A stretch of 64,000 nucleotides of DNA from Naegleria gruberi (lineage: Eukaryota), in assembly GCA_000004985.1 (NCBI GenBank), contig GG738928.1, one strand, 5' to 3'. Made by a program: the position numbers and the translations under genes. Shown here in pieces: positions 4,641 through 63,269 of this stretch (positions within the stretch are counted from its first letter, which is position 1; each line of letters starts with the position of its first letter). The notes below the pieces were generated by a model. That model was given only the letters and a program-made list of their open reading frames with translations. It made no database searches and was not told the origin of the DNA.

Positions 4641-4969
4641 TATTTACAAATTATTTATTTTCAATATTACAAAAACTGATAATCAATATCTGCGTTTTGA
4701 GAATAAAAATTAGATAGGATGCTTCACGCAAACAGAAGTCAGTGAAAAATGAGAGAACGTGTTTTTTCAAGAGAATTGAATAATTTTTCAGTTTTATTTG
4801 AAAACTATTAAGATTGGAGAAATCAAAAAAAACAAGAAAACGCTCTCAAATATGATAACCACCAAGATTTCAAATCTTAAAGCCAAAAAAAATAGCAATT
4901 ATCAAGAAAATTCCTACAGAAATAAAAAAAATCATATTCTTCGTTCCAATCTTTGAGTAACCTGGTAAT

Positions 4970-7828
4970 TCAATCTTCATTAATTCCAAATTGAAAGTCT
5001 TTTGAGGAACTATCTTTTGGTAGTGTGTCGAANNNNNNNNNNNNNNNNNNNNNNNNNNNNNNNNNNNNNNNNNNNNNNNNNNTTGAATATCTGAATAGGT
5101 TTGATAAAAATGTAGTATCACATGGACAACCACTGAGATTCAACTCATCCAGTGTCTGGAAGTACATGTACATAATATTAGAAAAAATTTTAGGAAATTC
5201 AATATTTGAAAGATCCAATGTTTTCAAACATGCAAATTCCTGTAAAAATGTTCTAAACGAATCACTGTAAATTGGATTGATATCTGTACTCATATCACCT
5301 GTTATATTGTTCAATTTGACATTCTCAATGGAAGGGGAATAACTCAATGAATGAGCAATTGAAAAAAGAGCAGGTGGTGACTTGTTTCCAGTGAATTTGA
5401 ATGTCTTCAGATTCTTCTTAGCTAGTAAGCTATCTCCAATTCTTTGTGTCCCTCTTTCTCCAATATCACAATGAGAAAGATCTAAATAGGTTAGATTAGG
5501 GCAGTTTTTCAATTTTTTCAAAAAATCGGCAAGATATGAGACACCGTTATCCCCAATCTTGTTGTTGCTAAAGTCTAATATTTTCAATGATGGAAAGTTA
5601 ATATAGAATGAAGAGAGATCTGATCCTGTAATCTTTGAATCATGAAATATCAAGCTCTCTATTAATGCTCTTCTAGAATAATCACTCTTAATAGAATAAA
5701 AGAATGTCTCAAAGTCTGCTCCTTTATCCTTTTCCTGATACTCGATATTCCAATGTTTGAGAATTATTGTACTAATTGGAAGGGATGATAATATTTTCGT
5801 CAAAACATCTTGGCAACCATTGAACCAACAAGTCTCCAAACATTTGCATTTAGAATATCTGCTAATCATTCCAGAAAGGAGAATGAAATTATTTCTTTCA
5901 GCCATTTCACGAAGAGTTCTGCTCATCGACTTTTGTAAATATAATTGCATCCATGCGTCTTTCATCTCCTTTAAATAGTAAGGAAGTTTTGAAATTCTCC
6001 ATTTTGAATTGCAAGCAATTTTCCATTCTTGTTCTGATGTAAGTTTTGGCAAATCTTCTAGAACTATGTGTTTTCTAAAATTTGTTGGAGGTTTTCCATG
6101 GTAGCCTTTTTGTAAACTACTCTGAATGCAGGATTTGAGTAGTTCAATAACACTATCATGAGTTTCAAATACATGGAGAGATGACATTTCATTCAGTAAC
6201 TTGAAGAAGGTTTTAAAGTCATTCATCTTTTCAATTTGGTTCAATTTTTCTATGAACGAATCTATGGATTGATAAGGCAATATTCCACAATTTTCATTCA
6301 TAAATTTAGAAATACTTTCAATAGAGTTAAAATCGGAAAAGATCTGGATAAAGTAAATGTGTAATGTGAGTTCTTTCAACCTCTTTCTGATACTTTTGAA
6401 AGAATAGGACACTCTGTCGTCATCAGTTACTTCAGCACATTGAAAATCTGCAATTTCCTTGTAGCTCTTCAAAATATTCTTAACATATCTTGTCAAGAAT
6501 TCTCTAACATAGATATCATACAAATCTTTCCAATCAAATTTTGAAAATGGAATTAGCATTACAAAGTTTAACAAATCTCCAACTTTTTCTTTTGATCTTT
6601 CTTCACTTCTAATAAAGGAATCAATAGAGCTATTAATCAATTCACTAATCTCTGGAATTTCCTTAATCGCCTCGATCATCAATCTGAAAAATCTCAAGCA
6701 AGCCATAAATGCATTGGTGGTCTTTTCTCTCTGATCAACCATTTGAAGCAAACAATTAGACATCAATCGAGGAAGAATTTCAATAACTTGTTCTGGTGAA
6801 AAATCTATCTTTTTCGAATGGGAACTGGACAAATTAGCTAATGAAGATTTGGTAACGTGAAGAACCTTCTTGATATGAATTTCATCATTTGTTTCTGTAA
6901 GGATTGGTATCCAGTGTGTAAATGAAGTTTTCTCTCTTGACATTCCTCTCACATTATAATTCATGAACGCTCTCAATGAAAGAATATCCAGAGAGCAATA
7001 TATAGAACATATTTCCAATGATTTTGCGTTTCTCTTTTTACAGTTAATTCCATAGCCAACAAGATCACTTGTTTTGGTAAAGAAGCAAACTGAATCTGAG
7101 TTGGCTAACACTTTCTCAACTTTACAATTCATTCTTTTGAAACCATCATCTTCCTCTCTAGATACAAATGGAGGAGAAGGTAAATGATTAGAATGGCCAA
7201 CTTTTCTATTAACATATGCTTTGGCATGTGACATTGACCATTCCTGAGCTGACAAGTATTCTTCCTTTTTTTCCTCAAAAGTCTTTGGATCCTGAATATT
7301 TGACAATACTCTAGTCACATCTGCTCCATCATATAAAAACGTTTGCAACTGCATCAAGATTGAATGAACAGAATAAATTGGTTTCCACTCCTCAAGAAAA
7401 TCCAAACAAATCCTATCAGAATCGACCACATTAGGATGTTCCATCCTCGTACACAATCGAATAGTGGGCGCCTCCATTGGATAATTCTCACTAAACTTGA
7501 TCACTGCATGAAAAACCACACCATCATACATGGTATCTGAATTTCCTCGAATATTTACGTGCCACATCATGAAATCCCTCTCATCATCCACCTGAAAATT
7601 CATCTCCCGATAAATATTCATTATTTTCAAATTATCGAGAGCCTTCTTCTTCTTGATCGGAGCTGGACATGCACTCACATGACTCAGTGGATTTTCTTGA
7701 ATGTATTTAAATTCGGAATATAATCTTTTCAAGGCTAAAATTGGAGAAGTTTTACAATGTTTGTAACTATTCGGATCTGAATTTGCTTTCGAACGTGCAT
7801 TGGGCTTGATCTTTTGGTGTTGAGACAT
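4970..7828 (-). CDS. Ubiquitin-conjugating (UBC/E2) domain protein with C-terminal RNI-type leucine-rich repeats; 3' end crosses the gap
   Basis: ATG at 7826-7828. The N-terminal UBC fold includes LKRLYSEFKYIQENP, MMWHVNIRG and YDGVVFHAVIKFSENYPMEAPTIRLCTRMEHPNVVDSDRICLDFLEEWKPIYSVHSILMQLQTFL, with the HPN motif and catalytic Cys present. The C-terminal ~230 aa are LRRs (LKILDFSNNKIGDNGVSYLADFLKKLKNCPNLTYLDLSHCDIGERGTQRIGDSL...). The last ~50 codons run through the N gap, so the stop at 4970 is unreliable. Confidence 0.75.
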   Translation of the reverse strand: MSQHQKIKPNARSKANSDPNSYKHCKTSPILALKRLYSEFKYIQENPLSHVSACPAPIKKKKALDNLKIMNIYREMNFQVDDERDFMMWHVNIRGNSDTMYDGVVFHAVIKFSENYPMEAPTIRLCTRMEHPNVVDSDRICLDFLEEWKPIYSVHSILMQLQTFLYDGADVTRVLSNIQDPKTFEEKKEEYLSAQEWSMSHAKAYVNRKVGHSNHLPSPPFVSREEDDGFKRMNCKVEKVLANSDSVCFFTKTSDLVGYGINCKKRNAKSLEICSIYCSLDILSLRAFMNYNVRGMSREKTSFTHWIPILTETNDEIHIKKVLHVTKSSLANLSSSHSKKIDFSPEQVIEILPRLMSNCLLQMVDQREKTTNAFMACLRFFRLMIEAIKEIPEISELINSSIDSFIRSEERSKEKVGDLLNFVMLIPFSKFDWKDLYDIYVREFLTRYVKNILKSYKEIADFQCAEVTDDDRVSYSFKSIRKRLKELTLHIYFIQIFSDFNSIESISKFMNENCGILPYQSIDSFIEKLNQIEKMNDFKTFFKLLNEMSSLHVFETHDSVIELLKSCIQSSLQKGYHGKPPTNFRKHIVLEDLPKLTSEQEWKIACNSKWRISKLPYYLKEMKDAWMQLYLQKSMSRTLREMAERNNFILLSGMISRYSKCKCLETCWFNGCQDVLTKILSSLPISTIILKHWNIEYQEKDKGADFETFFYSIKSDYSRRALIESLIFHDSKITGSDLSSFYINFPSLKILDFSNNKIGDNGVSYLADFLKKLKNCPNLTYLDLSHCDIGERGTQRIGDSLLAKKNLKTFKFTGNKSPPALFSIAHSLSYSPSIENVKLNNITGDMSTDINPIYSDSFRTFLQEFACLKTLDLSNIEFPKIFSNIMYMYFQTLDELNLSGCPCDTTFLSNLFRYSXXXXXXXXXXXXXXXXXFDTLPKDSSSKDFQFGINED
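5033..5082. other. Assembly gap (50 N)
   Basis: Run of exactly 50 n characters, inside the 3' end of the E2-LRR gene. Confidence 0.99.
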
Positions 7829-9349: not shown

Positions 9350-12300
9350 TTAAATCAATTTCGAATCATTCAACAAATTTTCTCTGGTTTTACCAGAATT
9401 TTCATAAAAAACAAACTCATCTGTTGTAGTAAATCTGGAAAAGGTATCATTCAAGTTGATAATAATCTGATCTTGTAGTGAGCTGATTGATTGTTGCAAT
9501 TTTTCATGGAATGCTTCTGGTATTTCCTTTTCATTCTTTGATTTCATTTCTTGATTGTTCTTGGCAGAGTTGACCAATTCACTAAGTGATTTTCTCATTT
9601 GTTTGAATTCGTTTCTAGTTTCGGATGGAATGTTAACTTCCTTAATGGAGCCACTTTCAATATAATTGGTAAATAATTCTTCAATCAATGAATTCACAGA
9701 GTCAATTCTGTCATTTGCTTTGATTAACTCTTGGAGTTGTTTCAGTTCCAAATATAAATGCAAGTTTTCTAATGAATATTCCTTTTTACAGAATGATTCG
9801 AATAGTTTCAGACCTTCTCTATTCGATAGTAATTGTTCCAATTCATCCTTTTCTTCATTACTCGATTGGTTTCTAAAATTCTTTTGTTTGATGAAATGAA
9901 CTAATCTCACAATAAGTGCAAATCCTCCAAATACCAACAAGTAACTAAACAAGTACAATATTTCAAATAGCAATGAAATTGAATCGTTCACTCTTGAATT
10001 TACATCACCTCTCTTGTAACTCAAACCTGACAATCCAATAATTTGTGAAATTACCAAAAATGTAAAGCAAACAATAAATAAAATCATTTCCACTCTAAAG
10101 TATAATGGAGTATCGAGTTGAATGAACCAATCATAAGCTCTCTTGATTGGAACTTTTGCCATTTTCTTGGCAGTTTCCTTATCAAACTTTTGTAAAGCTT
10201 CCTTGTTAAACGAAAGTGAACTATTTGATAAATTACTTGTTGATTTTTCATTACTATCCACAAGCATTTCAGATTCATTTCTAGAATTCAAAAGTGACAT
10301 GATCACATCTAACAAAATCAATGCACATATAAGAAATCCCAATGATAAAATCATAATTGTAAACGAAATTGAAACAATGTAAGAATATTCGATTCCTGTA
10401 ATGACACTCGTTCTCACAAGAATTACCCACAACGTCCAATACATTAGGTTCACGGTCATAAAGATTCCCATGATGGAAATCATTGCTCTTGTGGAGAGGA
10501 AAATTCTAATCACTCTCAAAATTTTGTCTCCCTTTTGGTACAATTGACTAGTTCTATCATTTTGGTTCAATGAGAATTTAATGGATAATCTATGATAGAA
10601 ATATTTGAGAATGTGAAATCTTGATGTCTGATACAAGTATGAAAACATTGCTGTCAAAGTCAAAGTGTTTACAATAATTGTAATAACATTCGAAACAATA
10701 TTCGATGCCAAATTACCATTTTCCAATTGAATCACCGTCGACTCTGTCAATCCCTCACTCTTCAATGATAATATCAACCCATTTCTAGTAGTATCCAACA
10801 AAATACTCCTCTGAACTATCAGAAATAGTCCACTTTCCACCACCAATGCAAACATTCCAATAAACGGAGTTACAAATCGACTCGCCAATGGTTGAGATTT
10901 TCGCATCACAATCAAGGCAACGAGAATTGAACTCGACAAGATGAAAAATAAAACACCAAATGAAATTTGTGCAATGTACAATTCGGATAATTGTTCGGCA
11001 GCCCTTAATGAATCAGTTGCGGTGTTATTAAGGGAGTTTTCGATAAAGGCAGCGAAGAGTGTGGTGTGCGTACATTTACAAATTAAATCTCCGTTTGATT
11101 GTAAAGTGGAAAGCGAGCAGCCGCTGGAATCCCATTGTAAAGTTGTTTCATTCCAGAATTTACAAGTGATTTGAGATGAATTGAGAGAATTGATTGTTTG
11201 ATTCAATATTGTAAAGTTAATTGAAATTGGTTGAGTCAATTCTGAAAGTGGTAATGTTTTACCTCCTAAATAAAGAGTGAAATCTTTAGAGTTGGTCAAT
11301 TGAGTTTGATTTGAAGTAAATAGAGGATTAGTATAGGTTATGAGTGATAATCCAACTTCCTTATTGTAGCCATCGTATTTTGTTAGAATGTAATCCGAAT
11401 CTAAACTAATGTCGGAGAATTTTTCTAATTTAGTGCTGTTAGAATTCTTAATAAATGTTGAAACTGTTACATTAATCAAATCTGATGAATAAACTGTGGA
11501 AATAATAGATTCGGATAATAATTTGACCGATTGCTGCAATAATAGAACAGATGTCAATTGAGTACAAGTATTCGAAACATTTGAGAAACCAAAAGAAAGT
11601 AAATTACTTGCACTTGTCAAGGTTGTTTGTAAATCAGAATCTGAAATTCTTTGCTTTGTAACGTAGCCAAGAGTTTCCTTTTCTTTTTTGTAAATTTCAT
11701 TAACTTGATTCAAATAATTTCCTAATTTGTCATTAATTGCTGTAGCAACCTCATTGGAAGAAGCTGATAAAGTAATTTGTTTCAGATTTTCCAAAGCAGT
11801 GGACGGATTGGAAATGTCAATTGTCATCTTATTGACAGACTCTACAAGTACTGAACTAGTTACTTCCTTTCTCAATTTTAAACTTGTATCATATGGAAAT
11901 ACAGTTGCAATACTACCCATTCTTGCTTTCAAAACTTCTGAAGAATCGTCCAAATTTGCACTAATCGAAACTGAACTAATCGATTGAGAATATTCAGTCC
12001 CCAACGCATCCAAACAAATTACAAACAATTCCAAACTTTGACTTGTAGCCAAACTTGTTTCATTCAAATAGGGAAGATACACAGAATCTCTTCCACTTGT
12101 CAAAAATTCTGAAATTCTAATCATTGAATTCTTAAATTTAAATCCAAAAGCAAATTTGAGAGGAGAAAGAAACAATCGACTCGCATTCGAATCTGTAAAA
12201 TTCCAAGCACCTACAACTTCCTCAATAATAAAACTTGTTTTCAGTGCAACACCTGACAATGGTTGAATATTAACAATTGCCATTGGATTTCGAATTGGTG

Positions 12301-14187
12301 GTGCGACGAGAATTACTTGTTGTGAAATGGCGATGATTTGATCCTTAATTGGCTTAATAAGGAGTGTGAAGGTGAGATTTCCAGAGGATTGGATGGTTGG
12401 TTGGATTTTGATGGAAATGATGGGATTGAAGGTCAATGTGAATAAGTTGGCGTTGTTTTTTGGTTTCGTCAAGATTCCAATAACATTTTCATCTGCTGAA
12501 ATAACTTCAGAACCAAACATGAATGAATATTTCAATGAAATGGTACAATTTGCAGTAGCACACTCATCCCTTGTTAATTTCAAATCTGAACTAGTTCTCA
12601 ATTCAACGCTCACAATATTGAAATCAACATTGTTTTTCACACCATTCACAAGTACTTGTGGAATTCCAATAGCATTCAGTGATCTTTCCACTAAAAGTGA
12701 ACAATCTATACCTAAATATCCTCCAGTACAAGTACAAAAGTCAGGTTGTAGACAATTGCCATTTCCAGAACAAACATTCGGTGAATTAGCCGAAACTCCA
12801 AAACAAATTGGAATGAAACAATTAGGTCCAGTATATCCAGGTGAACAAGTACAATTATTTGAAGAAGCACAAATACCATTTCCTGAACAAACTCTATTAT
12901 CATTTGCAGCAATTCCAAAACAACCAATCGAGCCACAATTATTTCCATAAAAACCTGGTTGACATTGACACTTGTTCATTTCAATGCATTCACCCCTTCC
13001 TGAGCAAACACTGCTACTGTTAGTACTCTCAATTCCAAAACACCAATTTGTAACACACATTGTTTTGAACTCATTCAAATAATAACCACTTTCACATGAT
13101 GGAGTTAGTGATCTAATTCTCTTTTTCAAAAATTCTGAAATATAAATTACACCACTTGTCTCATTAAATACTAAACCTCTTGCATCACTCACTGAACTAT
13201 CCAGAGCATCAGTGTTTTCATATGAAGTTGTGCTATTTCCAGCAATCATTGTAAGAGTTCCATTCTTGTCAATTCTGAAAATTCTTCCCTTATATGTTTC
13301 TGTTACAAAGACAGTTTCGTCCTTGGTAACGAATAAAGCACCACCTCCAATTGGGGAACCAGTGAATGCTAGTGTTGAAATATATCCAGTTTCGTTTATC
13401 ACTCTAACACCTTTCGTATCTGATAGGAAAATCTTTCCATTCCTAACAAAAATATCAAAAGGAGACTGAAGAATAGCACTAGTAGCTAGAACACCCTCTC
13501 CAGAATACGAAGAATCCAAATCACTTCCTGCTATTAATGAAATTATTCCATTCTTGACTAATCTAACTCTCGACTTGTCTATCAGGTAAAATTCATTCTC
13601 TGAAATTGCAAAGATTGAATTTGGACCTTTCAGAGCACTAAAAGCAGATCCATTTTCAGTGAAGGAAGACAAGGAGAAATCAGAATAGTTTCCAGCAACT
13701 GTGGAGACGAAACTATTCGGCCAATCACGAAGAGAAAGTTTTCTGACAATTCTATGTATTCTAATGATTAAAGATAATGATGAAATTGTTATATTGTGAT
13801 ATTGTGTGAAAATGTCATGTTATTAGCTTACCTGTCAACGTAAAAGAGGGTGTCATTGAAAATACTCGAGTCAGCCACAGTTGACATACAAATAGTGTTC
13901 TGATTACCATCAGGAGTGTATATTGAAGTGTTGTTTCCAATCTTGTTAGGAGAAAAACTTTCACTTTCCAATGAAAAGATTCGAATAGTACGGTTTAAAC
14001 CATCAGAAACGATTAGTTCGTTGTTGTATAAGGAAATTCCATACATTCCAATATCTGGTGTAGAAATTGGACCAATAGTCTTGATAATGTATTTAACACT
14101 AGCTTGTTTTTGTTCTTGTCCATCAACAGCCACAAACAGTAACAACACAATTGACAACAACAACCATGTATGACAGTTGACTTTCAT
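9350..14187 (-). CDS. Adhesion-GPCR-like receptor: signal peptide, NHL-type propeller, 3 EGF repeats, stalk, GPS motif, 7TM, C-terminal RGS domain; exons 13832..14187 and 9350..13742, intron 13743..13831
   Basis: ATG at 14185-14187 gives the signal peptide MKVNCHTWLLLSIVLLLFVAVDG. GTAAG donor (G at 13831) and AG acceptor (13743-13744) join in frame as ...LFYVDR/KLSLRDWPNSF.... EGF repeats: CSGRGECIEMNKCQCQPGFYGNNC, CSGNGICASSNNCTCSPGYTGPNC, CSGNGNCLQPDFCTCTGGYLGIDC. GPS motif: CKFWNETTLQWDSSGCSLSTLQSNGDLICKCTHTTLFAAF (~11043..11172). Seven hydrophobic helices span ~9900..11000. RGS domain: LKLFESFCKKEYSLENLHLYLELKQL...FTNYIESGSIKEVNIPSETRNEF (~9480..9850). Confidence 0.85.
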
Positions 14188-24916: not shown

Positions 24917-26371
24917 TTAATAGCCAACATAGGATGGAGTGTGAACGGTGAATTTGGCATTATGGAAATCTCTCTTCAATAAGCTATCGCTACTGATGGA
25001 GTAAATAAAGTGAGTAAGGAATTGAGTAGTGGGATAGATTGCATTGGTTGAGAAGAGAATAATATCATCCTTTTCAGATTTGAAATTATTGGTGTAGTTT
25101 CCATAATATTGTCCAAGGAAATGAGAGTCAAATGATGGAGAGAATGCTTCTAATTCATAGTAGGTGTAATCATCATACCTCTCCCTGCTGGAATTGATGA
25201 ATATTCTAGTGTCTGCTGAGATACCTAATTTCAGTGAGTGGTTATGGAGTTTGACAACCTGAGATTCACTACCATCCAGTTGAGCAAGCGGAACAGTTGA
25301 GTTATCTTTGTAATCTTGATATACAACATATCCATCAATAGCATCAATTTTTGCTTCATTTAACTCAACTCGAATGTTTTCCATTTTGACAAAAAAGTAT
25401 AAAAACCCAGATTTTGGAATTTGATAATTAATCAATGAACCAAGTTCAGAGCAGTCAAGTTGACCAACAAATACATATCCTTTTCTCCAAATAGCTGATT
25501 TGTTTGTCGTATTTGGAGAACCTCCAATCTTTGTTTTAGAGCCATCATTTGGCTTATTGGAATCAAAATAATCTGGATACAAATTGTAGGATAAGGAAAC
25601 AGCATTATTTAAAATCTCCTCAGAACTATTATCTACAGATTCTGATTTCATAAAACTTGAAATAATTGATTTCTTTGAGTTTAAATGAGGAAATAAATCA
25701 GAAAAGAATTTAGTTTTCCATCCTTTTGATTCATCGTTTCTAATTTGTGAAAGTGTAGAACTGGTTGCATAGGTGAAGAATAATGGATCTTCAATCATTG
25801 TTAAATGATAACAGTATTTCCAAATTTCATCATTTTCAACAATTAAACAATTCCAATATTTGCAGACAATTCTCATCCTCAATAGTTCATTAAAATTTCC
25901 AATAAATTTCAAAATATTTGAGTGAACATCTGGTACCAGAGCTGATAGACTAGCTCCCTCTCTAATAGAGACTTGGGATGAGTCAGTATGTTGATTGAAC
26001 CAATTGTTCACAAGTACCAATGTAATGTTCGAAAAATAACTCGAAACCCCTGGAAGTGAGTTGTTCAACTCTTGATCATTCTTAATTGCACACTCAATTG
26101 CATATTGTCCAATTGAGGAACAGTGAAAAGTAAGTGTGTAATTCAAAGAAAGCTCAAGAATTTCTCCCAACACAAACTTGATAATTCTCTTCAAACAAAC
26201 AGCAAGCACCTTCTCTTGGTTTTCAATTTGATGCTTTAAACTTCCAAAATTGAGTGTAAAATACTTTCCAATAAATCTTTCAACACTCAAACTCTCTGCA
26301 GCATCATCCACCATCACATGTTCAATCTGAAGTAAATTCTTCATTGGAAAGGCAGCCAATTGTCCTTCCAA
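24917..26371 (-). CDS. Histone H2A-like fold + F-box + DUF1963 (YwqG-like) protein; 5' end unresolved
   Basis: H2A-like region: QLAAFPMKNLL...EKVLAVCLKRIIKFVLGEILELSLNYTLTFHCSSIGQYAIECAIKNDQELNNSLPGV. Compare H2A LQFPVGR...[49 protein letters not shown]. F-box: LVPDVHSNILKFIGNFNELLRMRIVCKYWNCLI. DUF1963-like: KIGGSPNTTNKSAIWRKGYVFVGQLDCSELGSLINYQIPKSGFLYFFV. The track start is TTG. The frame is open from 26398, and the first ATG is at 26342-26344. Confidence 0.6.
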   Translation of the reverse strand: MEGQLAAFPMKNLLQIEHVMVDDAAESLSVERFIGKYFTLNFGSLKHQIENQEKVLAVCLKRIIKFVLGEILELSLNYTLTFHCSSIGQYAIECAIKNDQELNNSLPGVSSYFSNITLVLVNNWFNQHTDSSQVSIREGASLSALVPDVHSNILKFIGNFNELLRMRIVCKYWNCLIVENDEIWKYCYHLTMIEDPLFFTYATSSTLSQIRNDESKGWKTKFFSDLFPHLNSKKSIISSFMKSESVDNSSEEILNNAVSLSYNLYPDYFDSNKPNDGSKTKIGGSPNTTNKSAIWRKGYVFVGQLDCSELGSLINYQIPKSGFLYFFVKMENIRVELNEAKIDAIDGYVVYQDYKDNSTVPLAQLDGSESQVVKLHNHSLKLGISADTRIFINSSRERYDDYTYYELEAFSPSFDSHFLGQYYGNYTNNFKSEKDDIILFSTNAIYPTTQFLTHFIYSISSDSLLKRDFHNAKFTVHTPSYVGY

Positions 26372-29732: not shown

Positions 29733-32010
29733 ATGCCTTTAAATGCATCGAATGTATCCAACAGAAGTAAGGATGATGTGATCATCGAGGATGGGTATAC
29801 AGCATCTTCATCGTTATCGTCATCCTCATTATCGTTATTAAGGGCAGGTGATAGTAAAAGCTGCAGTAGCTGTTCAATAGAAGCAGCAACTCCATGGAAA
29901 CAAGATACATCCTCATCATCAACATCAGATGACTTCATAATTCCTATTCGGAATGGTAGGAGCAACTCTCGCCAATTCATAAAAACACCATCCTTTTCAT
30001 CCCTTTCAACAATAATAGATTCTTCACTTCCATCAACGCCTAAATCATTGCCTTCATCACCATCATCATTACAAAATCATCAAGAAGGAACAGAACCACC
30101 TCTTACTGATACTCTCCTAGTTAAATCGATGAGCGAATGTAAGAATGACATGGAGAGGGGCATGTTGAACATGTTGGCTGATAAGAAGAATCTTCAGAGA
30201 TTGGTCGGAATTCTCTTCATCTTTGCCACTCTACAAAGTGTTCAACAAATGACACTCTATGAAAATTTATTGAATATTGCCTTTTTCCTTGTTCAGTGCC
30301 TTAATAATTATTTAAGACAAACTAATAATGATACAGCTCTCACCTATGAGGAATCATTCAAACATTTGGATAAAAGAGAAATTATAAGAACTGTTTTTTC
30401 AATGGTCATGTACACTTTGAGAATGATGTATCTTCCCAAACACAAGATGATTTTCCTTCCAGTGCTTTTTATTTGGTTTGCAGGAGCTAACAAACTATAT
30501 ATCTACTCTACATTTTGGGGATTACTACCCACTTACTATGCTTCAGTGATGTATATATCGTTGGCTTGCTATTTTGGATTTTATGAATTGTTAGAGAATG
30601 GGTACACTGAGACATTTCTAAATTTAATGATGGATTACTTTATTTTGGTGGCTGTGGTGTGGATGTGGACATATTATCTGGTTAATGTAACTGGATTCTT
30701 GAAACACAAAGTGGACAAACTGAAGGAAACAAGGAAACGTTTGGAAAGTGCTTTGGAAGCACGAAGTAGATTCATTGCACATGTGAGTCATGAATTCCGT
30801 TGTCCAATCATGTCCAGCATTGGGTGTTTAGAATTGTTGAAAGAAACTCCTCTGAATGAGAAACAAAATGATCTCGTAGATACAATAGTTTCATCGAATA
30901 GTGTCATTCTTCTATTGATTGAAGACATTTTACAAATTGTTAAAATTGAACATGAAAGTAAGGGTGCAAAGAAGGAAGATACAAATATTCAACCTTTCAA
31001 TATTTTCGAATCATTGAAATCGCTGAAAGGAATAATTTCTGGTTATGCTTCGAATTTTAAGGTTAAGCTTAATTTGGAAATTGATGAAGGAATTAAGAAC
31101 TTGACAGTTTTATCAAATCCTTCAAAGATCCATCAAATACTTTCTAATTTGCTGACGAATGCAGTGAAAGCATCAAAGAAAGATGATGATGTTTGGCTTA
31201 AATGCAATATTTTGGAAAAGAAAGATGATGAAACTGTAAAGATTAGATTTACTTGTCAAGATTTTGGATGTGGAATTCCTCCTAATTTGTTGGAATCTAT
31301 ATTTGAACCCTTTGTACAATTGCAAAATAATTCACAATCAAAAGTACCTAGCTCTGGGCTAGGATTGACTACAGTATCTCATTTAATCAAGACATTGAAT
31401 GGAACTATTAACGTTGAATCACAGGTTGGAATAGGAAGCTCATTTACAGTTGACTTGGCTTTTAAAATTGTTCCAAACGAGGTAAAATATAAAGTTCAAG
31501 AAAATGTTGTTGTAGAAGAAAAGAGATCGAAACTACACTTGAACGTTCACAAGAATTACTTGAACCTGATGTCACATTTAGAAGAAGGTGAAAAGGAAAT
31601 GGAAGAAACTCCAAAATTCAATTCCAATGTTTTGATAGCTGAAGATAATCCAATCAATAGAAAAGTTATTGTAAAGATGATTAATAGTATGGGAAGTGAA
31701 ACTGATTTTGTTTGTGATGGAAAGGAATTGGTTGAAAAGTTTAATCCAAGCACTCACAAAGTTGTATTTACTGATATGGTAGGTAGCTCAAATTTCGTTT
31801 TTTAAGGTCTAATAACAATAATAGAATATGCCAAATATGAACGGATTAGAAGCAGCCAAGAAATTAAGAGAAAAATTTGGAAATACTTTCAGGATTTATC
31901 TCTTGACAGGAAATGTCACAATTTCATTATCTGATGAAATTGGTGTGTTTGATGGAGTGTTAACTAAACCTTGTTCTAAACAGGATTTGAAAAAATGTTT
32001 GGAAAATTAG
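29733..32010 (+). CDS. Membrane-bound hybrid histidine kinase (about 6 TM + HisKA + HATPase_c + receiver); exons 29733..31778 and 31825..32010, intron 31779..31824
   Basis: H box RSRFIAHVSHEFRCPIMS, N box LSNLLTNAVKAS, G1 QDFGCGIP, G2 SSGLGLTTVSHLIKTLNGTINVES. Receiver: VLIAEDNPINRKVIVKM...KVVFTDM/NMPNMNGLEAAKKLRE...VLTKP. The GTAGGT..TAATAG intron is phase 0 and lies directly after the phospho-acceptor Asp-Met. Confidence 0.9.
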
Positions 32011-35648: not shown

Positions 35649-36725
35649 TTAGTGTCTTGGACCGTAGTCTCTACTGTCTCTAGGACGAGATTCAAACTCA
35701 TTACGAGATGATCCTTGATTGTTGTTCTTATTTGAATCATTGGTTGTTCTTCCATATGAAGGTCTATCAGAATAATTTCCATAAGATTGATGTCTGTCAT
35801 AATATGCTCCTCCTCTATTGTTGTTGTTATTGTAAGAACGAGGTGGTGGAATTTCAATTTGATTTGAATTATCAGACACTCTACCATAAGAAGATGTTGG
35901 ACCATAATAGGATGAAGAATTATTTCTTGAATCAACTCTTCCATAGTGAGGTGAATTATTTTGTGGAGGAGGGTAAGGTTGATATCTATTATTATTATTG
36001 TTGGAATAGTGATAATCACGAGTTGATCGTGGATTTCTGTATGGTGATGATGGCCTAGAAGATGACGATCCATATCGATCTCGATCATCTCGGAATGGAG
36101 GAGAAGGTGGAGAATAATTATCAGAGTGACGATGATGATCTGATCCATTGTTTCCTCCACGATGATAGTCATTATTATAGGATGATGATCTGCTACTATC
36201 ACGATCATTATCATAAGATCTTCTACCAGACATTGAACCTCCTCCTCTTGGTTCTCTTCCACCTCTTGGTCCTCGTTTCTTTAGCATCTTTATATAATCA
36301 TCTCTCTTCATACCACCATCTTTTCCTCTTCCGTATTGTCTCCCTTCTACGAAACCTGTATCGATGGCAATTTTAAGAGCACGATTATTTAATTTACATC
36401 CTCTACAATATTTAACGCATTCCTCTGCATCGGATCTGTGATAGAACTCAACAAAACAAAATCCACAAGGTGTTAACGTATTTCTATTTAAACCCATTAC
36501 AACTCGCTTAACTTCTCCACATTTTTCAAACAATTCGTATATTTGCTCCTCCTTGGTATAAAAACTTAGATTTTCTACATAGATTGTTGAAGATTGAGAA
36601 AGTGCCCTCTCGAAATCCTCTTCATTTCCGCCCTCATTTACATAGTGTTTTAATAAATATTCATATTCTCTCTTGCTTCCGTGAAAAAATTTTAAAGGAT
36701 GATGAGCTTCGAGAAGATGAGCCAT
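35649..36725 (-). CDS. NCBP2: Nuclear cap-binding protein subunit 2 (CBP20) with long R/G/S/Y/N-rich C-terminal tail
   Basis: [61 protein letters not shown]...[18 protein letters not shown] matches the CBP20 RRM and its flanks. The track start at 36788 is GTG. The first ATG is at 36723-36725 ([10 protein letters not shown]-rich context). Confidence 0.9.
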
Positions 36726-37056
36726 TTTTTTTGTATCTAAATTTTTATTCTTCCCCTTCAACATTAATTCATCGAGCCTTCTTTGCACAAAGGAATATCA
36801 ACACCACAAACATAGCTTAGCATAGCAGACAAAGAGGCTTTGACAGAGTTGTGGATTCTTTGCCATCACCCTTGACTAGACATGGTACAAGAAAACATTT
36901 TGCACAACATTGGAATGCCCTTTGAAATGAATTATCATAACATACACACCATTAATACCTTACTGCCCTCTTATTGTGACAGGTCCATTTATCTATTGTT
37001 TATTGTCACAGCACAGTATGAGGACACAGTAATGAATTAACATCTTCTTTTAAAAA

Positions 37057-40000
37057 ATGCCTCAAGATAGAAGGGCCAACCTCTTGCTCTTGATTATCAC
37101 AGTTATTTTGTGTTTCGCAGCAACGGCCGACTTGTCTAAGGGAATTTTAACGGAGGCAGAATATCAAACCTACATCTCCAATTCATGCCCTTCTAAGCCT
37201 CTCTCCACTGATGCTTGGTACTCTGAGGAAAGTAACTTGATAAATATTATTCTTGCGGGTGATAATTCAAAGCTTCCTCTGATCTACCCTCAGGAGTATT
37301 CGACGAATAACACTATTGTAAGGGATGATATTCTCAATACAACTACAACAAGCAACTCTTCACCAGCAACAACAATATTACAATCAGGAAACAATACAAC
37401 AGTGAACAACTCCTCCTCAACAAGCAACACAACTATTACCATTATTCAAGGGTGGGATGATCTTCTCAAAGTTCTTAATGAGACTTTGAAACCCAACGCT
37501 ACCCTCGCTGATAACTCAACAAGTGGAAATAATAGTTCTCTAGGATCGAATGGTTCAATCATTTTTAATTCCACCAATTCACAAACAACTACTAATGGAA
37601 ATGTACCTCTGTTGAATACTACCCTTAACTCAACCACAAACTCTAGCCCTTCTGTTGGAACAAATACAACAAATACTCAGTTATCCTCCAATACAACCCC
37701 TAGTGTTATTTCGAATAGTACTGGTACAGCTTCGACAATCAATTCCACTAATGCTAACCTGAACACAGTGAATGGAACAAGCGGAAGTACAGAAATTGGT
37801 TCGACCTATGGATCCAACAGCACTTCTGGTCAAGGTAATAGCACAACCACGAACACGCCATTTGGTTCTAACTCTAATTCCATAGGATCAACAATAGTAA
37901 CTAACGGAACTGTTGCAGCCGGTGCAATTTCTAGTTCAACAGTAACCTCAAACGGTGGGTATGTTGGCTCCAATACCTCTGGTTCAATAAGCACAACTTC
38001 AACTGGATCTAATAGCCAAGGATTAGGATCTAGCTCCTCCACAAATGTCTCTGCTAATAATACTGCAACTGTTAGTGGACCTTCAAGTGGATTTAATTCT
38101 ACTTCTGGGGCAACTTCTGGGGCAAACAACGGTTCCGTTACAACAAGTACTGGAACAAATGGTCAATCAACTACTGGAACAAGCTTAGGATCGACCTCCT
38201 CTAATGGTTCAAACAGTGGTTCAACTAATGGAACAAATACAGGTTCCGTTTCCACAAGTACTGGAACAAGTGGTTCCTCTTCAAGTGTTTCAACAAACTC
38301 AGGATCAACAAGCTCTTCTAACTCTGGTTCAACTAATGGAGCAAACACCGGATCAATTGGCGTTTCTAACTCTGGATCTTCTATTGGAACAAATACTGGT
38401 TCTGGTTCAACAATCACTGGAACCAGTTCAGGTTCTTCAACTAGTTCTAACACCAATACAGGAAACAATAATGTCTCCAATTCTGGATTAAATGGTCAAG
38501 GAACAAATTCTACTTCAAGCTCCTCAGCTACTAACATTTCAGGTTCAAATAATACTGGATCAAGTAATCAAGGAAGTAATTCAGGATCCAGTTCTACTGG
38601 AACAAGTAGCACTTCAAGTACTGGATTAAATGGTAGCGTTTCTTCAGGTGGTTCTAACACTGGAACAAATGGAGTATCAAATAATGGATCAGCAACTGGC
38701 ATTGCTCCCAATGTCTCTGGAACAAGTGGTAGTTCCTCTTCAAGTGTTTCAAACACTGTCTCCTCAAACTCAGGTTCGAGTGCTAATAATACTTCAACTG
38801 TTAGTGGACCTTCAGCAGGATCTAATTCTACTTCTGGAACAACTTCTGGAGCAAACAGCGGTTCCGTTACAACAAGTACTGGAACAAACGGTCAATCAAA
38901 TTCTGGAGCTAGCTCAGGATCTACCTCCTCTGGCTCTTCAAGTGGTTCGAACAGTGGTCCTGGCTCTAATACTGGTACAAGTGATACTAATACAGGGTCA
39001 ACAAGCTCTTCTAACTCTGGTTCTTCGAGTGGAGCAAGTACTGGTTCAGGTTCTTCAACAAATTCTAACACTAATCCAGGAAACAACAATGTCTCCAATT
39101 CTGGATTAAATGGTCAAGGAACAAATTCTGCTTTAGGCTCCTCAGCTACTAACATTTCAGGAGCAAGTAATACTGGACAAGTTCTACATCTCAAGCTCTG
39201 GATTAAGTAATTCAGGATCCAGTTCTACTGGATCAAGTAGCACTTCAAGTACTGGATTAAATGGTGGCTCTTCTACAGGTGGTTCTAACACTGGAACAAA
39301 TGGAGTATCAAATAATGGATCAGCAACTGGCATTGCTCCCAATGTCTCTGGAACAAGTGGTAGTTCCTCTTCAAGTGTTTCAAACACTGTCTCCGCAAGC
39401 TCAGGTTCGAGTGCTAATACTTCAACTGTTAGTGGACCTTCAGCAGGATCTAATTCTACTTCTGGAACAACTTCTGGAGCAAACAGCGGTTCCGTTACAA
39501 CAAGTACTGGAACAAACGGTCAATCAAATTCTGGAGCTAGCTCAGGATCTACCTCCTTTGGCTCTTCAAGTGGTTCTACCAATGCTGGACCCAATTCTAG
39601 TAGTAATTCAACGGTCAGTGGTGGTTCTTCAAATGCATCTGGTTTTACAAGTACTGGACCGAATACTCAAGGTGGTTCATTATCTGACTCCTCAAATACT
39701 GGAACTGCTAGCACTCCAAGTGCTGGATTAAGTAGTGGATCTTCTTCAGGTGGTTCTAACACTGGGACAAATGGAGCATCAAATAATGTTTCTGGAACAA
39801 ATGGTGGTTCATCTTCTAGTGTAACAAACAGTGGTTCTGGTTCTAATACTGGTATTAATACTGGAACAATTGGCGTTTCTAACTCTGGATCTTCTATAGG
39901 AACTGGGGTAAATACTGGTGCTGGAGCAAGTTCAGGATCTTCAACAAATTCTAACATCAATACAGGAACCAATAGTGTCTCCAATTCTGGATTAAATGGT

Positions 40001-42713
40001 CAAGGAACAAATTCTACTTCAAGCTCCTCAGCTACTAACATTTCAGGTTCAAGTTATACTGGTACAGGAGGTACTACCTCTTCAAGTTCTGGATTAAGTG
40101 GTGGTTCTTCGTCAGGTAATGCTATTACTGGATCAACAACTGGCAACACTGCAAATGTCTATGGAGGAAATGGTGTTATCAATACAGGATCAACCAGCAC
40201 TGGAGCAAATACTGGTTTACCAAGCACAGGACCTTCAACTACTCAATCACTGGAACAATTGGTGTTATCAATTCAGGATCAACGAGCTCTTCTAACTCTG
40301 GATCTTCGCCTGGAGCAAATACTGGTTCTGGTACAACAATCACTGGAACTAGTTCAGGATCTTCAACAAATTCTAACACTAATACAGGAACCAATAGTGT
40401 ATCAGGTTCAAATACTAGTGGCTCTATCACAAGCCCATCCACTGTATCCACTAGCTCTTCTAACATTGGAACAAATACTGGTTCCGGTTCGAGTAATACT
40501 GGAACTTCTAGTAATGGATCAATTGTTTCAAATAGTGGCTCCACAAGTACTGAAACTACTAGCACCCCAAATACTGGATTAAATGGTGGTTTTTATTCAG
40601 GTGGTTCCAACACTGGAACAAATGGAGTATCAAATAATGAATCAACAACTGGTATCACTACAAATGTTTCTGGAACAATTGGGGGTTCATCTTCTAGTGT
40701 ATCAAATAGTGGTTCTGGTTCTAATACTGGTATTAATACTGGAACAATTGGCGCTTCTAACTCTGGATCTTCTATTGGAACAAATAATGGTTCTGGTTCA
40801 ACAATCACTGGAACCAGTTCAGGATCTTCAACTAGTTCTAACATCAATACAGGAAACAATAATGTCTCCAATTCTGGATTAAATGGTCAAGGAACAAATT
40901 CTACTTCAAGCTCTTCAGCTACTAACATTTCGGGTTCAAGTAATACTGGTACAGGAGGTACTACCTCTTCAAGTTCTGGATTAAGTGGTGGTTCTTCTTC
41001 TGGTGGTTCTAACACTGGAACAACTGAATCAACAATTGGCAACACTGCAAATGTCTATGGAGGAAATGGTGTTATCAATACAGGATCAACCATTTCTGGA
41101 ACAAACACTGGTTTACCAAGCACAGGAGCATCAACTACTTCAACAGGCAATCCTGGTTCTGGTTCAGCAAACACTGGAACCACTTCAAACGGTTCTACCA
41201 ATACAGGTACCACAATTAATAGTGGTTCAGGATCTACCAATACAGGTACCACAATTAATAGTGGTTCAGTATCTGGTTCTTCAACAGGTTTAAACAACTC
41301 TGGTTCTTCAACAAATAACAGTAGCTCAACAATTTCTACCACAACAAACCCAGCCACTTCCAGTGGTTCAGGATCTTCAACAAATTCTAACACTAATACA
41401 GGAAACAATAATGTCTCCAATTCTGGATCAAATGGTCAAGGAACAAATTCTGCTTCAAGCTCTTCAGCTACTAACATTTCAGGTTCAAATACTAGTGGTT
41501 CAAGCTCATCTTCTGGTTCTTCTAACACTGGAGCAAATACTGGATTAACAAGCACAGGACCATCCAATACTCCAACCAATAATGGGGGTTCCTCTAATTC
41601 TGGGTCAAGCTCTAGTGGAACTAGTGGTTCAACTTCAGTTATTTTTGGAGCAACAAGCTCCTCCAATCCTAACTCTGGCTCTAATACTGGTACAAGTGGT
41701 GATACCAATACAGGATCAACGAGCTCTTCTAACTCTGGATCTTCGACTGGGGCAAATACTGCTTCAAGCAATGCTGGATCAGGTACAAACAATGGAAACA
41801 ATGGATCAACAAGTTCAAATAGCAATTCAACAAGTTATAGTGCTCTTGATACTCTTCGTAAAGAAATAGAACGATTAGTTACAGATATTATTGGGCGACC
41901 TGATCCAAACCTGCCAACACCAGATCTTCAAAAAGGAATAGACACACTTAAAAATGACATTCTTGGTGTCAAACCTGCCTCACCGACTACTACTAGTCTA
42001 CCACCAACTCAACAAACTCTAACAGCTCAATTAACAACTCACCAACATCAAACAATAATGTTACAAAACCTTCTAACAATACAAACACAACCACAACCCT
42101 TAACGCCTCAAAAAGCACAACCCCAACAAGGAACTCAACCACTACTTCGACTAGTGTATCAACCACAACAACCGATAGTACTTCCAATGCTATTCAGTCA
42201 AGTAATAGAAACAACAATGCTGGAAGTCCAATCAGATGTAAACAGAAATGTCCTGTTAGGTATGAACAGAAAGTGTGTATAACCAAAAGAAAAACCAGTA
42301 GTTCTTCTTCTGTTGTTGCATCCAATATTGTTGCAGTCATGGCAGAGAACATTGCCACCATTAAGAATGGATCACCTGATGGGTTAATAATTGGTTTATC
42401 TGTTGCAGGAGGTGTGTTAGCAATTCTGTGTTGTACAGGATCGTCTATCATTGGATGTGTTCTGTACGCTAAGAGAAAGAGAAATAATTTCTGGAATCTT
42501 TATGAAGATAAAAATGTCAGAATGCTTATGGAGGGTCACATTGATGAAAGTGCATATGCAGATGTTGAATTAGAGGATGATGAAGAATTTGATCCACTAG
42601 AAGCAAAATCTTCTTACTCTGGCTCTAATGAAGATGATTTCAAGTTTGACGAAGAATCAGAAGAATCTTCAGAATCAGATAAACAAGAAGAAGAAATTGA
42701 ATTTGAATATTAA
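37057..42713 (+). CDS. Giant mucin-like Ser/Thr/Asn/Gly-rich surface protein (signal peptide ... TM + acidic tail); reading frame broken at least 3 times (pseudogene or assembly errors)
   Basis: Signal peptide MPQDRRANLLLLIITVILCFAATA from ATG 37057. The S/T/G/N-coding frame is frame 1 to ~39190, frame 2 to ~40243, frame 1 to ~41995, then frame 0 to the stop at 42713. The last segment holds a Cys motif (CKQKCPVRYEQKVC), the TM helix LIIGLSVAGGVLAILCCTGSSIIGCVLY and an acidic tail. The middle frames have no start codon, so they are absent from the ORF track. A ~90-nt block (GGAAACAATAATGTCTCCAATTCTGGATTAAATGGTCAAGG...) recurs at 38461, 39079, 39965, 40852 and 41401. Confidence 0.6.
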
Positions 42714-42836
42714 AAAACTAGTAATAAATTTAATATCAAATTATATGAGTTTTAATTCCTTAAATCGTTGGAGCGGGATTGAAAGCCATTGAAATAGAAA
42801 CACGAAAACTTCAGCTTGGAAACTAAAAATAAAAAA

Positions 42837-53600: not shown

Positions 53601-53956
53601 AAGAAGGAAATTTACTTAAAGTAGCTCAAGCAGAAACAGCCAAAATGAAAAAATTATTGAAAAAGCAAAAAGATATTACTAATAAGAAGTTTGTACACAA
53701 TTCAACTCCTAAATTACATATTAAGGAATCAGATACAAGACAAAAGAAGCCAAACATGTTTAAACCAAGATCAGTTCCAAAGAGAAATGAAACAATTTCA
53801 TCATCATCATCATCAAGTGGTAATAATAATCAACAAACAGCAAGTGGCAGTGGCAGTGATTCAGTAGTTACTAATAACACTGAAAATCAATCACAACCAT
53901 CAGCTGCTGCAGTGGGTGGTTTGAGTAATGATGATTTTAAAAAGTTTTTAAGATAA
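50685..53956 (+). CDS. SART3: SART3/Prp24-like U4/U6 snRNP recycling factor (HAT repeats + RRM + C-terminal LSm-binding motif); exons 50685..51396 and 51468..53956, intron 51397..51467
   Basis: HAT/TPR-like repeats: WLDWIREEE...IYERALLWENYS/YKTLRANYCKFMLKYYE, LWNMLLNFL, AWQDFIQFME, LWLYYEKV. RRM: LNVVVWNLPFSMKEQDIRELF...SKGMAFVELESHEIIQQAIEKLN. The extreme C-terminus GLSNDDFKKFLR resembles the SART3/Prp24 LSm-interaction motif. The GTAAGT..AAATAG intron has a phase-1 junction in frame. Confidence 0.8.
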
Positions 53957-55901: not shown

Positions 55902-55951
55902 NNNNNNNNNNNNNNNNNNNNNNNNNNNNNNNNNNNNNNNNNNNNNNNNNN
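55902..55951. other. Assembly gap (50 N)
   Basis: Run of 50 n, with a further single n at 55974. Confidence 0.99.
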
Positions 55952-63135: not shown

Positions 63136-63269
63136 ATATTTTAATATTTATAATTATAAATAAAAAAAAACAATTTAAATTATTAAATCATAATGTGTTT
63201 TAAATTGTTGTTGATGAAGAAGAATATTTCAAAAGTTTAAATTATTATTAAATAAATTATTAATCAATT

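What the first reader, a model, noticed from the sequence alone, without database searches (positions are those of the whole stretch)
4970..7828. Ubiquitin-conjugating E2 core fused to RNI-type leucine-rich repeats
The N-terminal ~190 aa have a complete UBC fold signature, including HPN and the catalytic Cys in ICLDFL. The C-terminal ~230 aa are ribonuclease-inhibitor-type LRRs. They are separated by ~450 aa of unassigned helical sequence, all in one uninterrupted ORF. LRRs are normally the substrate-recognition part of E3 adaptors such as F-box/LRR proteins. An E2 carrying its own LRR module would be an E2/E3-hybrid-like architecture, comparable to UBE2O or BIRC6, but I do not recall it being described. 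The 3' end crosses a 50-N gap, so the true C-terminus is unknown.
Basis: partly seen in the sequence, partly recalled or inferred. Interest (0 to 1): 0.6.

Follow-up and report, generated by a model that had tools for sequence, protein, structure and literature searches.

The report
E2 enzyme fused to UBR4-like ligase module
This Naegleria gruberi gene joins a RAD6-like ubiquitin-conjugating enzyme to a module that folds like the E3 ligase core of UBR4 and to leucine-rich repeats, which suggests a self-contained ubiquitin ligase of a widespread protist family that I found described nowhere.

Summary
Window 5084-7828 (-) is one stop-free run of 915 codons in a Naegleria gruberi scaffold. It has a UBC domain (Pfam UQ_con E=4e-25, HPN 131-133, Cys141) and RI-type LRRs (aa 661-915), and it is cut by a 50-N gap.

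UBC plus this module is the core of a large protist family (2,829 cluster representatives). Most members add an F-box. Eight relatives, from Willaertia, Acrasis, Percolomonas, Anaeramoeba, Vannella and metagenomes, share the target's architecture and continue about 400 aa further, with about seven more LRRs and an RRM. The Naegleria copy is therefore probably truncated by the gap. It is also the most divergent member.

Caveats: the UBR4 link is structural only, the C2HC zinc ligands are not conserved, and no activity has been tested.

Best reading: a single-chain E2-E3 ligase with an LRR (and RRM) substrate arm.

The parts
5084..7828 (-). Stop-free coding run of 915 codons, from the ATG at 7826-7828 to the assembly gap. 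This is the N. gruberi gene (C-terminus missing).
   Evidence: It is colinear with Willaertia P0109 aa 21-858 by tblastn, E=1.6e-113.
7214..7744 (-). UBC (E2) domain, aa 29-205, closest to the RAD6/UBE2A/B family.
   Evidence: Pfam UQ_con E=4.2e-25. Best PDB sequence hits are At UBC1 8e-22 and UBE2B/UBE2A ~1e-19. Foldseek TM ~0.78.
7430..7438 (-). HPN motif, aa 131-133.
7406..7408 (-). Predicted catalytic cysteine Cys141 (RICLDFL).
   Evidence: This Cys is invariant in a 22-member sample of the family.
7583..7660 (-). Target-specific 26-aa insert (aa 57-82) between the UBC helix 1/'VSACP' loop and strand 1. No relative has it.
   Evidence: Alignment A4. pLDDT <50 over aa 61-82.
7088..7213 (-). 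Linker of ~42 aa (aa 206-247), mostly low-confidence and probably flexible. It takes the place of the F-box (+/- SPRY) found in most family members.
   Evidence: pLDDT <50 over aa 211-254 in the full-length model, although both models place a helix at ~aa 228-246. Alignment A1. No F-box by Pfam or by the family F-box HMM.
6827..7087 (-). Beta-rich subdomain (aa 248-334), provisionally equated with the UBR4 hemiRING position. It has a long beta-hairpin and a following helix, and carries the invariant Cys248, Gly258, Gly260 and Pro308.
6098..6826 (-). All-helical subdomain (aa 335-577), UZI-like, ending in the conserved KGYHG motif.
   Evidence: The family profile search found 2,829 representatives.
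5849..6097 (-). Three-helix connector (aa 578-660), conserved only in the LRR-RRM subfamily (W..C..RW..LP...W..LYLQ).
5084..5848 (-). About nine ribonuclease-inhibitor-type leucine-rich repeats (aa 661-915), cut off by the gap.
   Evidence: Pfam LRR_6 E=2.7e-10. AF2 strand-helix repeats. Matches the LRRs of relatives at E down to 4e-26.
5033..5082 (.). Assembly gap of 50 N. By comparison with relatives, about 400-460 aa (about 7 LRRs + RRM) may be missing here.
   Evidence: The flanks do not overlap.
4870..5032 (-). Sequence after the gap. Frame 1 is open for 53 codons and ends in a T-rich, hydrophobic stretch. Frame 0 (the listed ORF end, 4970-5032) is open for 20 codons. It is unproven whether either frame is coding.
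   Evidence: No match to the C-termini or RRM of relatives.

Best explanation
The ORF is the Naegleria gruberi member of a conserved protist protein family for which I found no description. This copy is divergent and probably truncated by the assembly gap.

The constant core of the family is a RAD6-like E2 (UBC) domain, tethered by a mostly low-confidence linker to a module with the fold of the UBR4 hemiRING-UZI E3 module. In this subfamily the core is followed by RI-type LRRs and, in the full-length relatives, an RRM.

Proposed mechanism:
1. E1 charges Cys141 with ubiquitin.
2. The tethered E2~Ub docks in cis on the beta-rich, hemiRING-like subdomain, which is supported by the UZI-like helical bundle.
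3. This favours discharge of ubiquitin onto lysines of a protein, possibly an RNA-bound one, held by the LRR solenoid (and the RRM).

Shown: the domain identities, the fold match, the family and its architectures, and the intact E2 active-site motifs.

Inferred: cis docking, E3-like activation, the substrate role of the LRR/RRM, and that the missing C-terminus lies in the gap.
For: Domains in the target:
- UBC with HPN and Cys.
- Middle-domain AF2 model with pLDDT 89 and pTM 0.80 from a 70-sequence alignment, no templates.

Fold match:
- In Foldseek, 8b5w (UBR4 E3 module) is the only significant hit: E=7.7e-4, prob 1.0, TM 0.50/0.61. The next hit has E=0.29.
- UBR4 and Ubr1 use UBE2A/B = RAD6 (PMC10873205).
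- The target UBC and a 22-member family UBC profile both rank the RAD6 family first. The top 15 PDB hits are all RAD6-type, at 111-103 bits, against <=101.6 bits for UBE2D.

Family:
- 122 of 155 fetched members carry UBC plus the module. Accessory domains vary: F-box, SPRY, WD40, vWA, LRR+RRM.
- Eight relatives from three eukaryotic supergroups have UBC + module + LRR + RRM, colinear with the target.
- The 42-aa linker between E2 and module is mostly low-confidence.
Against: - There is no sequence-level link to UBR4. A HMMER profile of 30 middle domains found nothing in the PDB at E<=10. No Pfam UBR4 family appeared at E<=10.
- The C2HC zinc ligands that define the hemiRING are not conserved. 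Only Cys248 is invariant; positions 250 and 305 swap H/Y/F.
- The UBE2A specificity residues are only partly kept in the target: K7, R8, S11, and K at the Ser97 position.
- Two relatives, Anaeramoeba and Vannella, have Ser in place of the catalytic Cys and degenerate HPN. E2 catalysis is therefore not universally required in the subfamily.
- The target is the most divergent member: 22-32% identity to the others, which share 32-46% with each other.
- It has no sequence for the RRM.
- I could not inspect E2-module contacts in the models, and there are no expression or activity data.
Confidence: 0.6

Rival explanations
1. An E3-independent E2 with a built-in substrate arm, as in UBE2O or BIRC6. 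The UBC acts alone, the LRRs bring the substrate, and the middle region is only a structural spacer or scaffold with no effect on E2~Ub reactivity.
For: The zinc ligands of the hemiRING are not conserved, and there is no sequence similarity to UBR4. UBE2A-type E2s have high intrinsic lysine reactivity (PMC10873205).
Against: The middle domain is the most conserved and most widespread part of the family: 1,001 representatives at E<=1e-30, with invariant residues. Its only strong structural relatives are E2-docking modules of RAD6-dependent ligases. A mere spacer would not keep a rare two-subdomain fold across supergroups.
Confidence: 0.12
2. A pseudo-enzyme or scaffold. The UBC domain serves as a non-catalytic ubiquitin- or module-binding domain (UEV-like) that plugs the hemiRING-like site. 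The protein works as an adaptor, for example an RNA/protein-binding LRR-RRM factor, for another ligase.
For: The Anaeramoeba and Vannella relatives have Cys->Ser and HPC/HPF instead of HPN. The target has an unusual 26-aa insert in the UBC and is fast-evolving.
Against: The target keeps HPN, Cys141 and the following Trp, as do the other heterolobosean relatives and three metagenomic ones. The Cys is invariant in a 22-member sample of the wider family.
Confidence: 0.13
3. A decaying or lineage-specifically shortened paralogue. The N. gruberi gene really ends near the gap, lacking about 7 LRRs and the RRM, and may be losing function.
For: It is the most divergent member, even against the sister genus Willaertia (32%, where Willaertia is 43-44% to Acrasis and Percolomonas). 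Only 392 bp lie between the gap and the convergent neighbour's stop, and nothing RRM-like follows the gap or occurs elsewhere in the window for this family. Both gaps in the window are exactly 50 N, which may be a placeholder for small gaps. There is no synteny with Willaertia.
Against: 915 codons without a stop (P~1e-27) and retained active-site and core residues argue against a dead gene. All eight relatives carry the full LRR+RRM tail. The gap size is unknown. This rival concerns completeness and is compatible with the main mechanism.
Confidence: 0.13
4. An artefact: a chimeric ORF created by mis-assembly or by reading through introns, so that the UBC and LRR parts are separate genes.
For: This is a draft assembly with gaps. 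A GTGAGT...TTTCAG pair brackets 90 in-frame bases inside the UBC region.
Against: The same domain order is colinear in eight independent genomes and transcriptomes. There is no stop in 915 codons. The candidate intron would delete the conserved 'VSACP' E2 motif and does not change the frame.
Confidence: 0.02

Closest known systems
UBR4 hemiRING-UZI E3 module with its E2 UBE2A/UBE2B (PDB 8B5W, 8BTL; Barnsby-Greer et al. 2024, PMC10873205)
   Different: Here the E2 is covalently fused upstream, whereas UBR4 recruits it in trans. The C2HC zinc site is not conserved. There is no detectable sequence similarity and no UBR box. The protein is ~1-1.4k aa rather than 5,183 aa, and its substrate arm is LRR(+RRM) or, in most relatives, an F-box.
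Yeast Ubr1 RING + cap-helical (UZI-like) domain with Ubc2/Rad6 (PDB 7MEY)
   Different: The similarity is much weaker. Ubr1 has a canonical two-zinc RING and N-degron-binding domains.
E2/E3 hybrid enzymes UBE2O and BIRC6
   Same: A UBC domain sits inside a large multidomain protein that selects its own substrates, so one chain does both E2 and E3 work.
   Different: Those proteins have no RING-derived E2-docking module, and their UBC lies near the C-terminus. Their flanking domains (CR1-3, BIR) are unrelated to those here.
F-box/LRR (FBXL) substrate receptors of SCF ligases
   Same: LRR solenoids serve as the presumed substrate-binding arm. Most members of the wider family do carry an F-box between the UBC and the module.
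   Different: The target and its LRR-RRM subfamily have no F-box. Their LRRs are RI-type and lie far from where the F-box sits in the other members. FBXL proteins carry no E2.

Membership tests
UBC / E2 superfamily (Pfam PF00179) | Profile match above the curated threshold, and the UBC fold | tested here: met
   88.4 bits against a 27-bit cut-off. Foldseek TM ~0.78 to RAD6/UBC1.
UBC / E2 superfamily (Pfam PF00179) | HPN motif and catalytic Cys about 8 residues downstream | tested here: met
   H131-P132-N133 and C141.
UBC / E2 superfamily (Pfam PF00179) | E1-dependent ubiquitin thioester on the Cys | not testable with these tools
   Needs biochemistry.
RAD6 / UBE2A-UBE2B subfamily | Closest to RAD6-type E2s among all E2 families | tested here: met
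   For the target, RAD6-type scores 81-66 bits against 64 bits for UBE2D1. For the family profile, the top 15 PDB hits are all RAD6-type. The margin is only ~10 bits, so this shows affinity, not orthology.
RAD6 / UBE2A-UBE2B subfamily | Arg7/Arg8/Arg11/Arg95 and Ser97, used for hemiRING recognition (PMC10873205) | tested here: not met
   The target has K34, R35, S38 (equivalent to positions 7, 8, 11) and Lys at the Ser97 position. The family consensus keeps R8, R11 and the W-S pair.
UBR4-type hemiRING-UZI E3 module | Two-subdomain fold: an extended beta sheet and helix packed on an 11-helix UZI bundle | tested here: met
UBR4-type hemiRING-UZI E3 module | C2HC zinc site (Cys4838, Cys4841, His4887, Cys4890) | tested here: not met
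   Only one invariant Cys (C248). Position 250 is H45/Y16/F9 and position 305 is H43/Y13 of 70; the target has F250.
UBR4-type hemiRING-UZI E3 module | Sequence-profile membership (Pfam/InterPro UBR4 C-terminal family) | tested here: not met
   No PDB hit at E<=10 with a 30-sequence profile. No UBR4 family in a Pfam scan of 30 members at E<=10.
UBR4-type hemiRING-UZI E3 module | Binds and allosterically activates E2~Ub (Gly-Gly element contacting Ub Ile36) | not testable with these tools
   No residue-level structural alignment or complex model was available.
RI-type leucine-rich repeats (Pfam PF13516 LRR_6) | Repeats of ~28-29 residues matching LRR_6, with a strand-helix solenoid | tested here: met
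   39.9 bits against a 23.4-bit cut-off. The AF2 model shows alternating strand and helix over aa 661-915.
F-box proteins | F-box motif | tested here: not met
   No F-box in Pfam at E<=1. No hit at E<=10 with an HMM built from the family's own F-boxes. The relatives of the LRR-RRM subfamily also lack it.
UBC-module-LRR-RRM subfamily (Willaertia KAL9641706.1, Acrasis KAL0483244.1, Anaeramoeba KAJ5071803.1 and others) | Colinear UBC + module + connector + LRR | tested here: met
   phmmer E=2e-113 to P0109, and all four segments match. Alignment A4.
UBC-module-LRR-RRM subfamily (Willaertia KAL9641706.1, Acrasis KAL0483244.1, Anaeramoeba KAJ5071803.1 and others) | C-terminal RRM after about 16 LRRs | tested here: inconclusive
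   The sequence stops at about LRR 9, at the gap. No family-type RRM occurs after the gap or elsewhere in the window.

The most novel reading that the evidence does not exclude
The hemiRING-like/UZI-like module here is not just an E2 dock. Its single invariant, non-zinc cysteine (Cys248, 70/70 sequences) would accept ubiquitin from the tethered E2, making a one-chain E2->E3-Cys relay. In the LRR-RRM branch, this relay would be aimed at RNA-bound targets. That would be a new mechanistic class of ligase, present across protist supergroups and absent from animals, fungi and plants.
Probability: 0.08. Interest if true: 0.9.

Novelty: new variant of a known kind. Interest (0 to 1): 0.66.

Why it matters
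The hemiRING-UZI module was described in 2024. A 2026 survey of the human ubiquitin system still lists it as a class with one member, UBR4.

If the fold match reflects homology, the module is the core of a large protist family. In that family it is physically fused to the same type of E2 that UBR4 and Ubr1 recruit. This would have three consequences:
- It would give independent evolutionary support for the RAD6-UBR pairing.
- It would provide small natural single-chain E2-E3 proteins (~600-1,300 aa) for mechanistic and structural work that is hard to do on the 574-kDa UBR4.
- It would show that the module can work, or at least persist, without the C2HC zinc site.

The LRR-RRM branch hints at ubiquitination coupled to RNA or RNP recognition.

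Tried and rejected
Searches that added little:
- The three word-index homology searches gave few hits and missed even known relatives. The exhaustive HMMER search was what opened up the family.
- A look-up of the neighbouring gene's contig found nothing.
- The AlphaFold-database fold libraries were not available.
- A metagenome scan for close relatives that might show the true C-terminus found none.
- Burroughs et al. 2008 on E2 architectures is not held, so I could not check whether E2-F-box fusions were noted there.
- Literature searches for E2 + F-box, hemiRING, UZI or E2-E3 fusions in protists found no description of this family.

Ideas rejected:
- The missing C-terminus lies elsewhere in the window. 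The LRR gene at 54180-55502 and the RRM genes at 35649-36788 and 51500-53956 are separate genes and give only generic matches.
- The gap flanks overlap. They do not.
- Synteny with Willaertia could settle orthology. There is none within +/-10 kb.
- The 26-aa UBC insert is an intron. No GT...AG pair removes the insert alone, and the one in-frame pair (7589-7678) would also delete the conserved VSACP motif.
- The middle domain belongs to a known Pfam family or has a sequence hit in the PDB. It does neither.
Full report
**Source and observation**

The window is a Naegleria gruberi NEG-M scaffold. Three neighbouring ORFs are identical to GenBank/UniProt entries D2W2W4, D2W2W6 and D2W2X6. The flagged ORF (4970..7828, minus strand) is listed as 952 codons, but Ns occupy 5033-5082. 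Only the first 915 codons (5084-7828) are real sequence. Because 50 is not a multiple of three, the 20 codons after the gap are in an arbitrary frame. A run of 915 codons without a stop has a chance probability of about 1e-27 at this window's stop frequency.

- UQ_con: E=4.2e-25, aa 78-191.
- RI-type LRR_6: E=2.7e-10, with LRR_4 and LRR_1.

The UBC N-terminal helix (aa 32-55) also aligns to RAD6. HPN is at 131-133 and the catalytic Cys at 141.

**Relatives**

The word-index protein search returned only two hits. Both shared not just the UBC but also the "unassigned" middle region. A profile of that region, followed by an exhaustive HMMER search of 1.84 billion cluster representatives, found 2,829 proteins at E<=1e-3 and 1,001 at E<=1e-30.

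Of the 155 family members fetched:
- 122 carry the UBC.
- At least 61 carry an F-box between the UBC and the middle domain.
- Individual members add SPRY, vWA or WD40 domains.

Named members come from a diatom, a foraminifer and a testate amoeba, and carry only generic annotations.

Eight proteins match the target over all of its segments, including the LRRs. They are Willaertia magna KAL9641706.1, Acrasis kona KAL0483244.1, Percolomonas sp., Anaeramoeba ignava KAJ5071803.1, a Vannella transcript and three metagenomic proteins. They are 1,220-1,420 aa long and none has an F-box. All continue about 400 aa beyond the point where the target stops. That tail holds about seven more LRRs and a canonical RRM (Pfam RRM_1 in six of the seven scanned).

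The target is colinear with Willaertia aa 21-858 of 1,319.

**The middle region**

It has no Pfam family and no PDB sequence hit. An AlphaFold model of target aa 225-660, built from a 70-sequence family alignment without templates, is confident (pLDDT 89, pTM 0.80). It shows a beta-rich subdomain (aa ~248-334) followed by an all-helical bundle (aa ~335-577) and a three-helix connector.

- Foldseek against the PDB gives one significant hit, 8B5W, "E3 module from UBR4" (E=7.7e-4, prob 1.0, TM 0.50/0.61). The next hit has E=0.29.

**The E2 type fits**

The best PDB sequence matches of the target UBC are RAD6-family enzymes: Arabidopsis UBC1 at 8e-22 and UBE2B/UBE2A at ~1e-19, against UBE2D1 at 1e-16. 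A profile of 22 family UBC domains ranks 15 RAD6-type entries first, including the UBE2A chain of 8BTL, ahead of all UBE2D entries. The margin is about 10 bits. This shows affinity, not proof of orthology.

The family thus fuses a RAD6-like E2 to the kind of E3 module that recruits RAD6 in UBR4 and Ubr1.

**Limits of that reading**

- The link to UBR4 is structural only.
- The C2HC zinc ligands are not conserved. Cys248, Gly258 and Pro308 are invariant, but positions 250 and 305 interchange His, Tyr and Phe, and the target has Phe250. The module may be zinc-free, as U-boxes are.
- Of the UBE2A residues that UBR4 reads (Arg7, 8, 11, 95 and Ser97), the target keeps only Arg8. The family consensus keeps R8, R11 and the Trp-Ser pair.
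- Two relatives (Anaeramoeba, Vannella) have Ser instead of the catalytic Cys and a degenerate HPN. Catalysis by the fused E2 is therefore not required everywhere.
- I could not inspect contacts between the UBC and the module in the full-length model (pLDDT 73, pTM 0.43).

**The Naegleria copy itself**

It is the most divergent member. It is 22-32% identical to the others, which are 32-46% identical to each other. The sister genus Willaertia is closer to Acrasis and Percolomonas than to Naegleria. The copy has a unique 26-aa insert in the UBC.

After the gap only 392 bp remain before the convergent neighbour's stop codon. Neither open frame there resembles the tails of the relatives. No family-type RRM occurs anywhere in the window, and the gap flanks do not overlap. 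There is no synteny with Willaertia, and no close relative in metagenomes.

Two readings remain. Either the gap hides about 1.2-1.4 kb, or this is a naturally shortened, fast-evolving paralogue. I lean towards the first.

**Most likely mechanism**

E1 loads Cys141. The mostly low-confidence 42-aa linker (pLDDT <50 over aa 211-254) lets the E2~Ub dock in cis on the hemiRING-like subdomain, which is braced by the UZI-like bundle. Ubiquitin is then discharged onto a protein held by the LRR solenoid, with an RRM in the full-length forms suggesting RNA-associated targets.

The domain identities, the fold match and the family are shown. The docking, the activation and the substrate arm are inferred.

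**Novelty**

I found no description of this family or of any E2-hemiRING/UZI fusion. A 2026 survey lists the hemiRING-UZI class as having a single human member, and lists only two E2-E3 fusions. I could not consult Burroughs et al. 2008.

I rate this a new variant of a known kind.

Noticed in passing
window 7589-7678 (-): A consensus-looking splice pair, GTGAGT...TTTCAG, brackets exactly 90 in-frame, stop-free bases (aa 51-80) inside the UBC region. Splicing would remove most of the odd 26-aa insert, but also the conserved 'VSACP' E2 motif. It is probably not an intron; only transcript data can tell.
   Followed up: partly
window 4870-5032 (-): After the gap, frame 1 stays open for 53 codons (chance ~0.03). 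It ends in a very hydrophobic stretch (MIFFISVGIFLIIAIFFGF), which could be a tail anchor or merely T-rich 3' sequence.
   Followed up: partly
relatives P0098 (Anaeramoeba ignava) and P0156 (Vannella), alignment A4: The catalytic Cys is replaced by Ser and HPN has become HPC/HPF, while the rest of the protein is conserved. These look like natural pseudo-E2 versions of the same architecture.
   Followed up: partly
family members, just after the UBC domain: A CxxCxH motif follows the UBC in 56 of 127 members that carry the C[FY][HFY][ST][KR] motif (P0081, among the close relatives, has it). The heterolobosean members, including the target, lack it. It may be a zinc-binding element linked to the module.
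   Followed up: no
L001 10411-10416 (Willaertia magna JBEGDK010000166.1): The Willaertia gene continues the UBC domain in another frame across this point, and its annotated protein lacks the second half of the UBC. This is likely a frameshift or a mis-called intron in that record.
   Followed up: partly
window 9350-13672 (-): A 1,440-aa ORF combines teneurin-like NHL and EGF repeats, a GPS motif, a hydrophobic (probably multi-pass membrane) region and a C-terminal RGS domain. It looks like an adhesion-GPCR-like receptor fused to an RGS domain.
   Followed up: no
window 42816-44150 (+): An ORF with a UEV/inactive-UBC domain plus a Mod(r) domain, that is, a Vps23/TSG101-like ESCRT-I subunit. It is a second UBC-fold gene in the window and is unrelated to the finding.
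   Followed up: no
window 54180-55502 (+) and 55902-55951: A separate 440-aa protein made almost wholly of RI-type LRRs (LRR_6 E=2e-53) lies 400 bp from a second gap of exactly 50 N. It gives only generic, register-shifting matches to the relatives' LRRs.
   Followed up: partly
window 24917-26371 (-) and 29733-31805 (+): An F-box-like + DUF1963 protein, and a hybrid histidine kinase with a receiver domain (D2W2X6).
   Followed up: no
window 36001-42000 and 62001-64000: GC content rises to 0.38-0.42 around 36-42 kb and falls to 0.18 at the end of the window. Elsewhere it is ~0.30-0.35.
   Followed up: no
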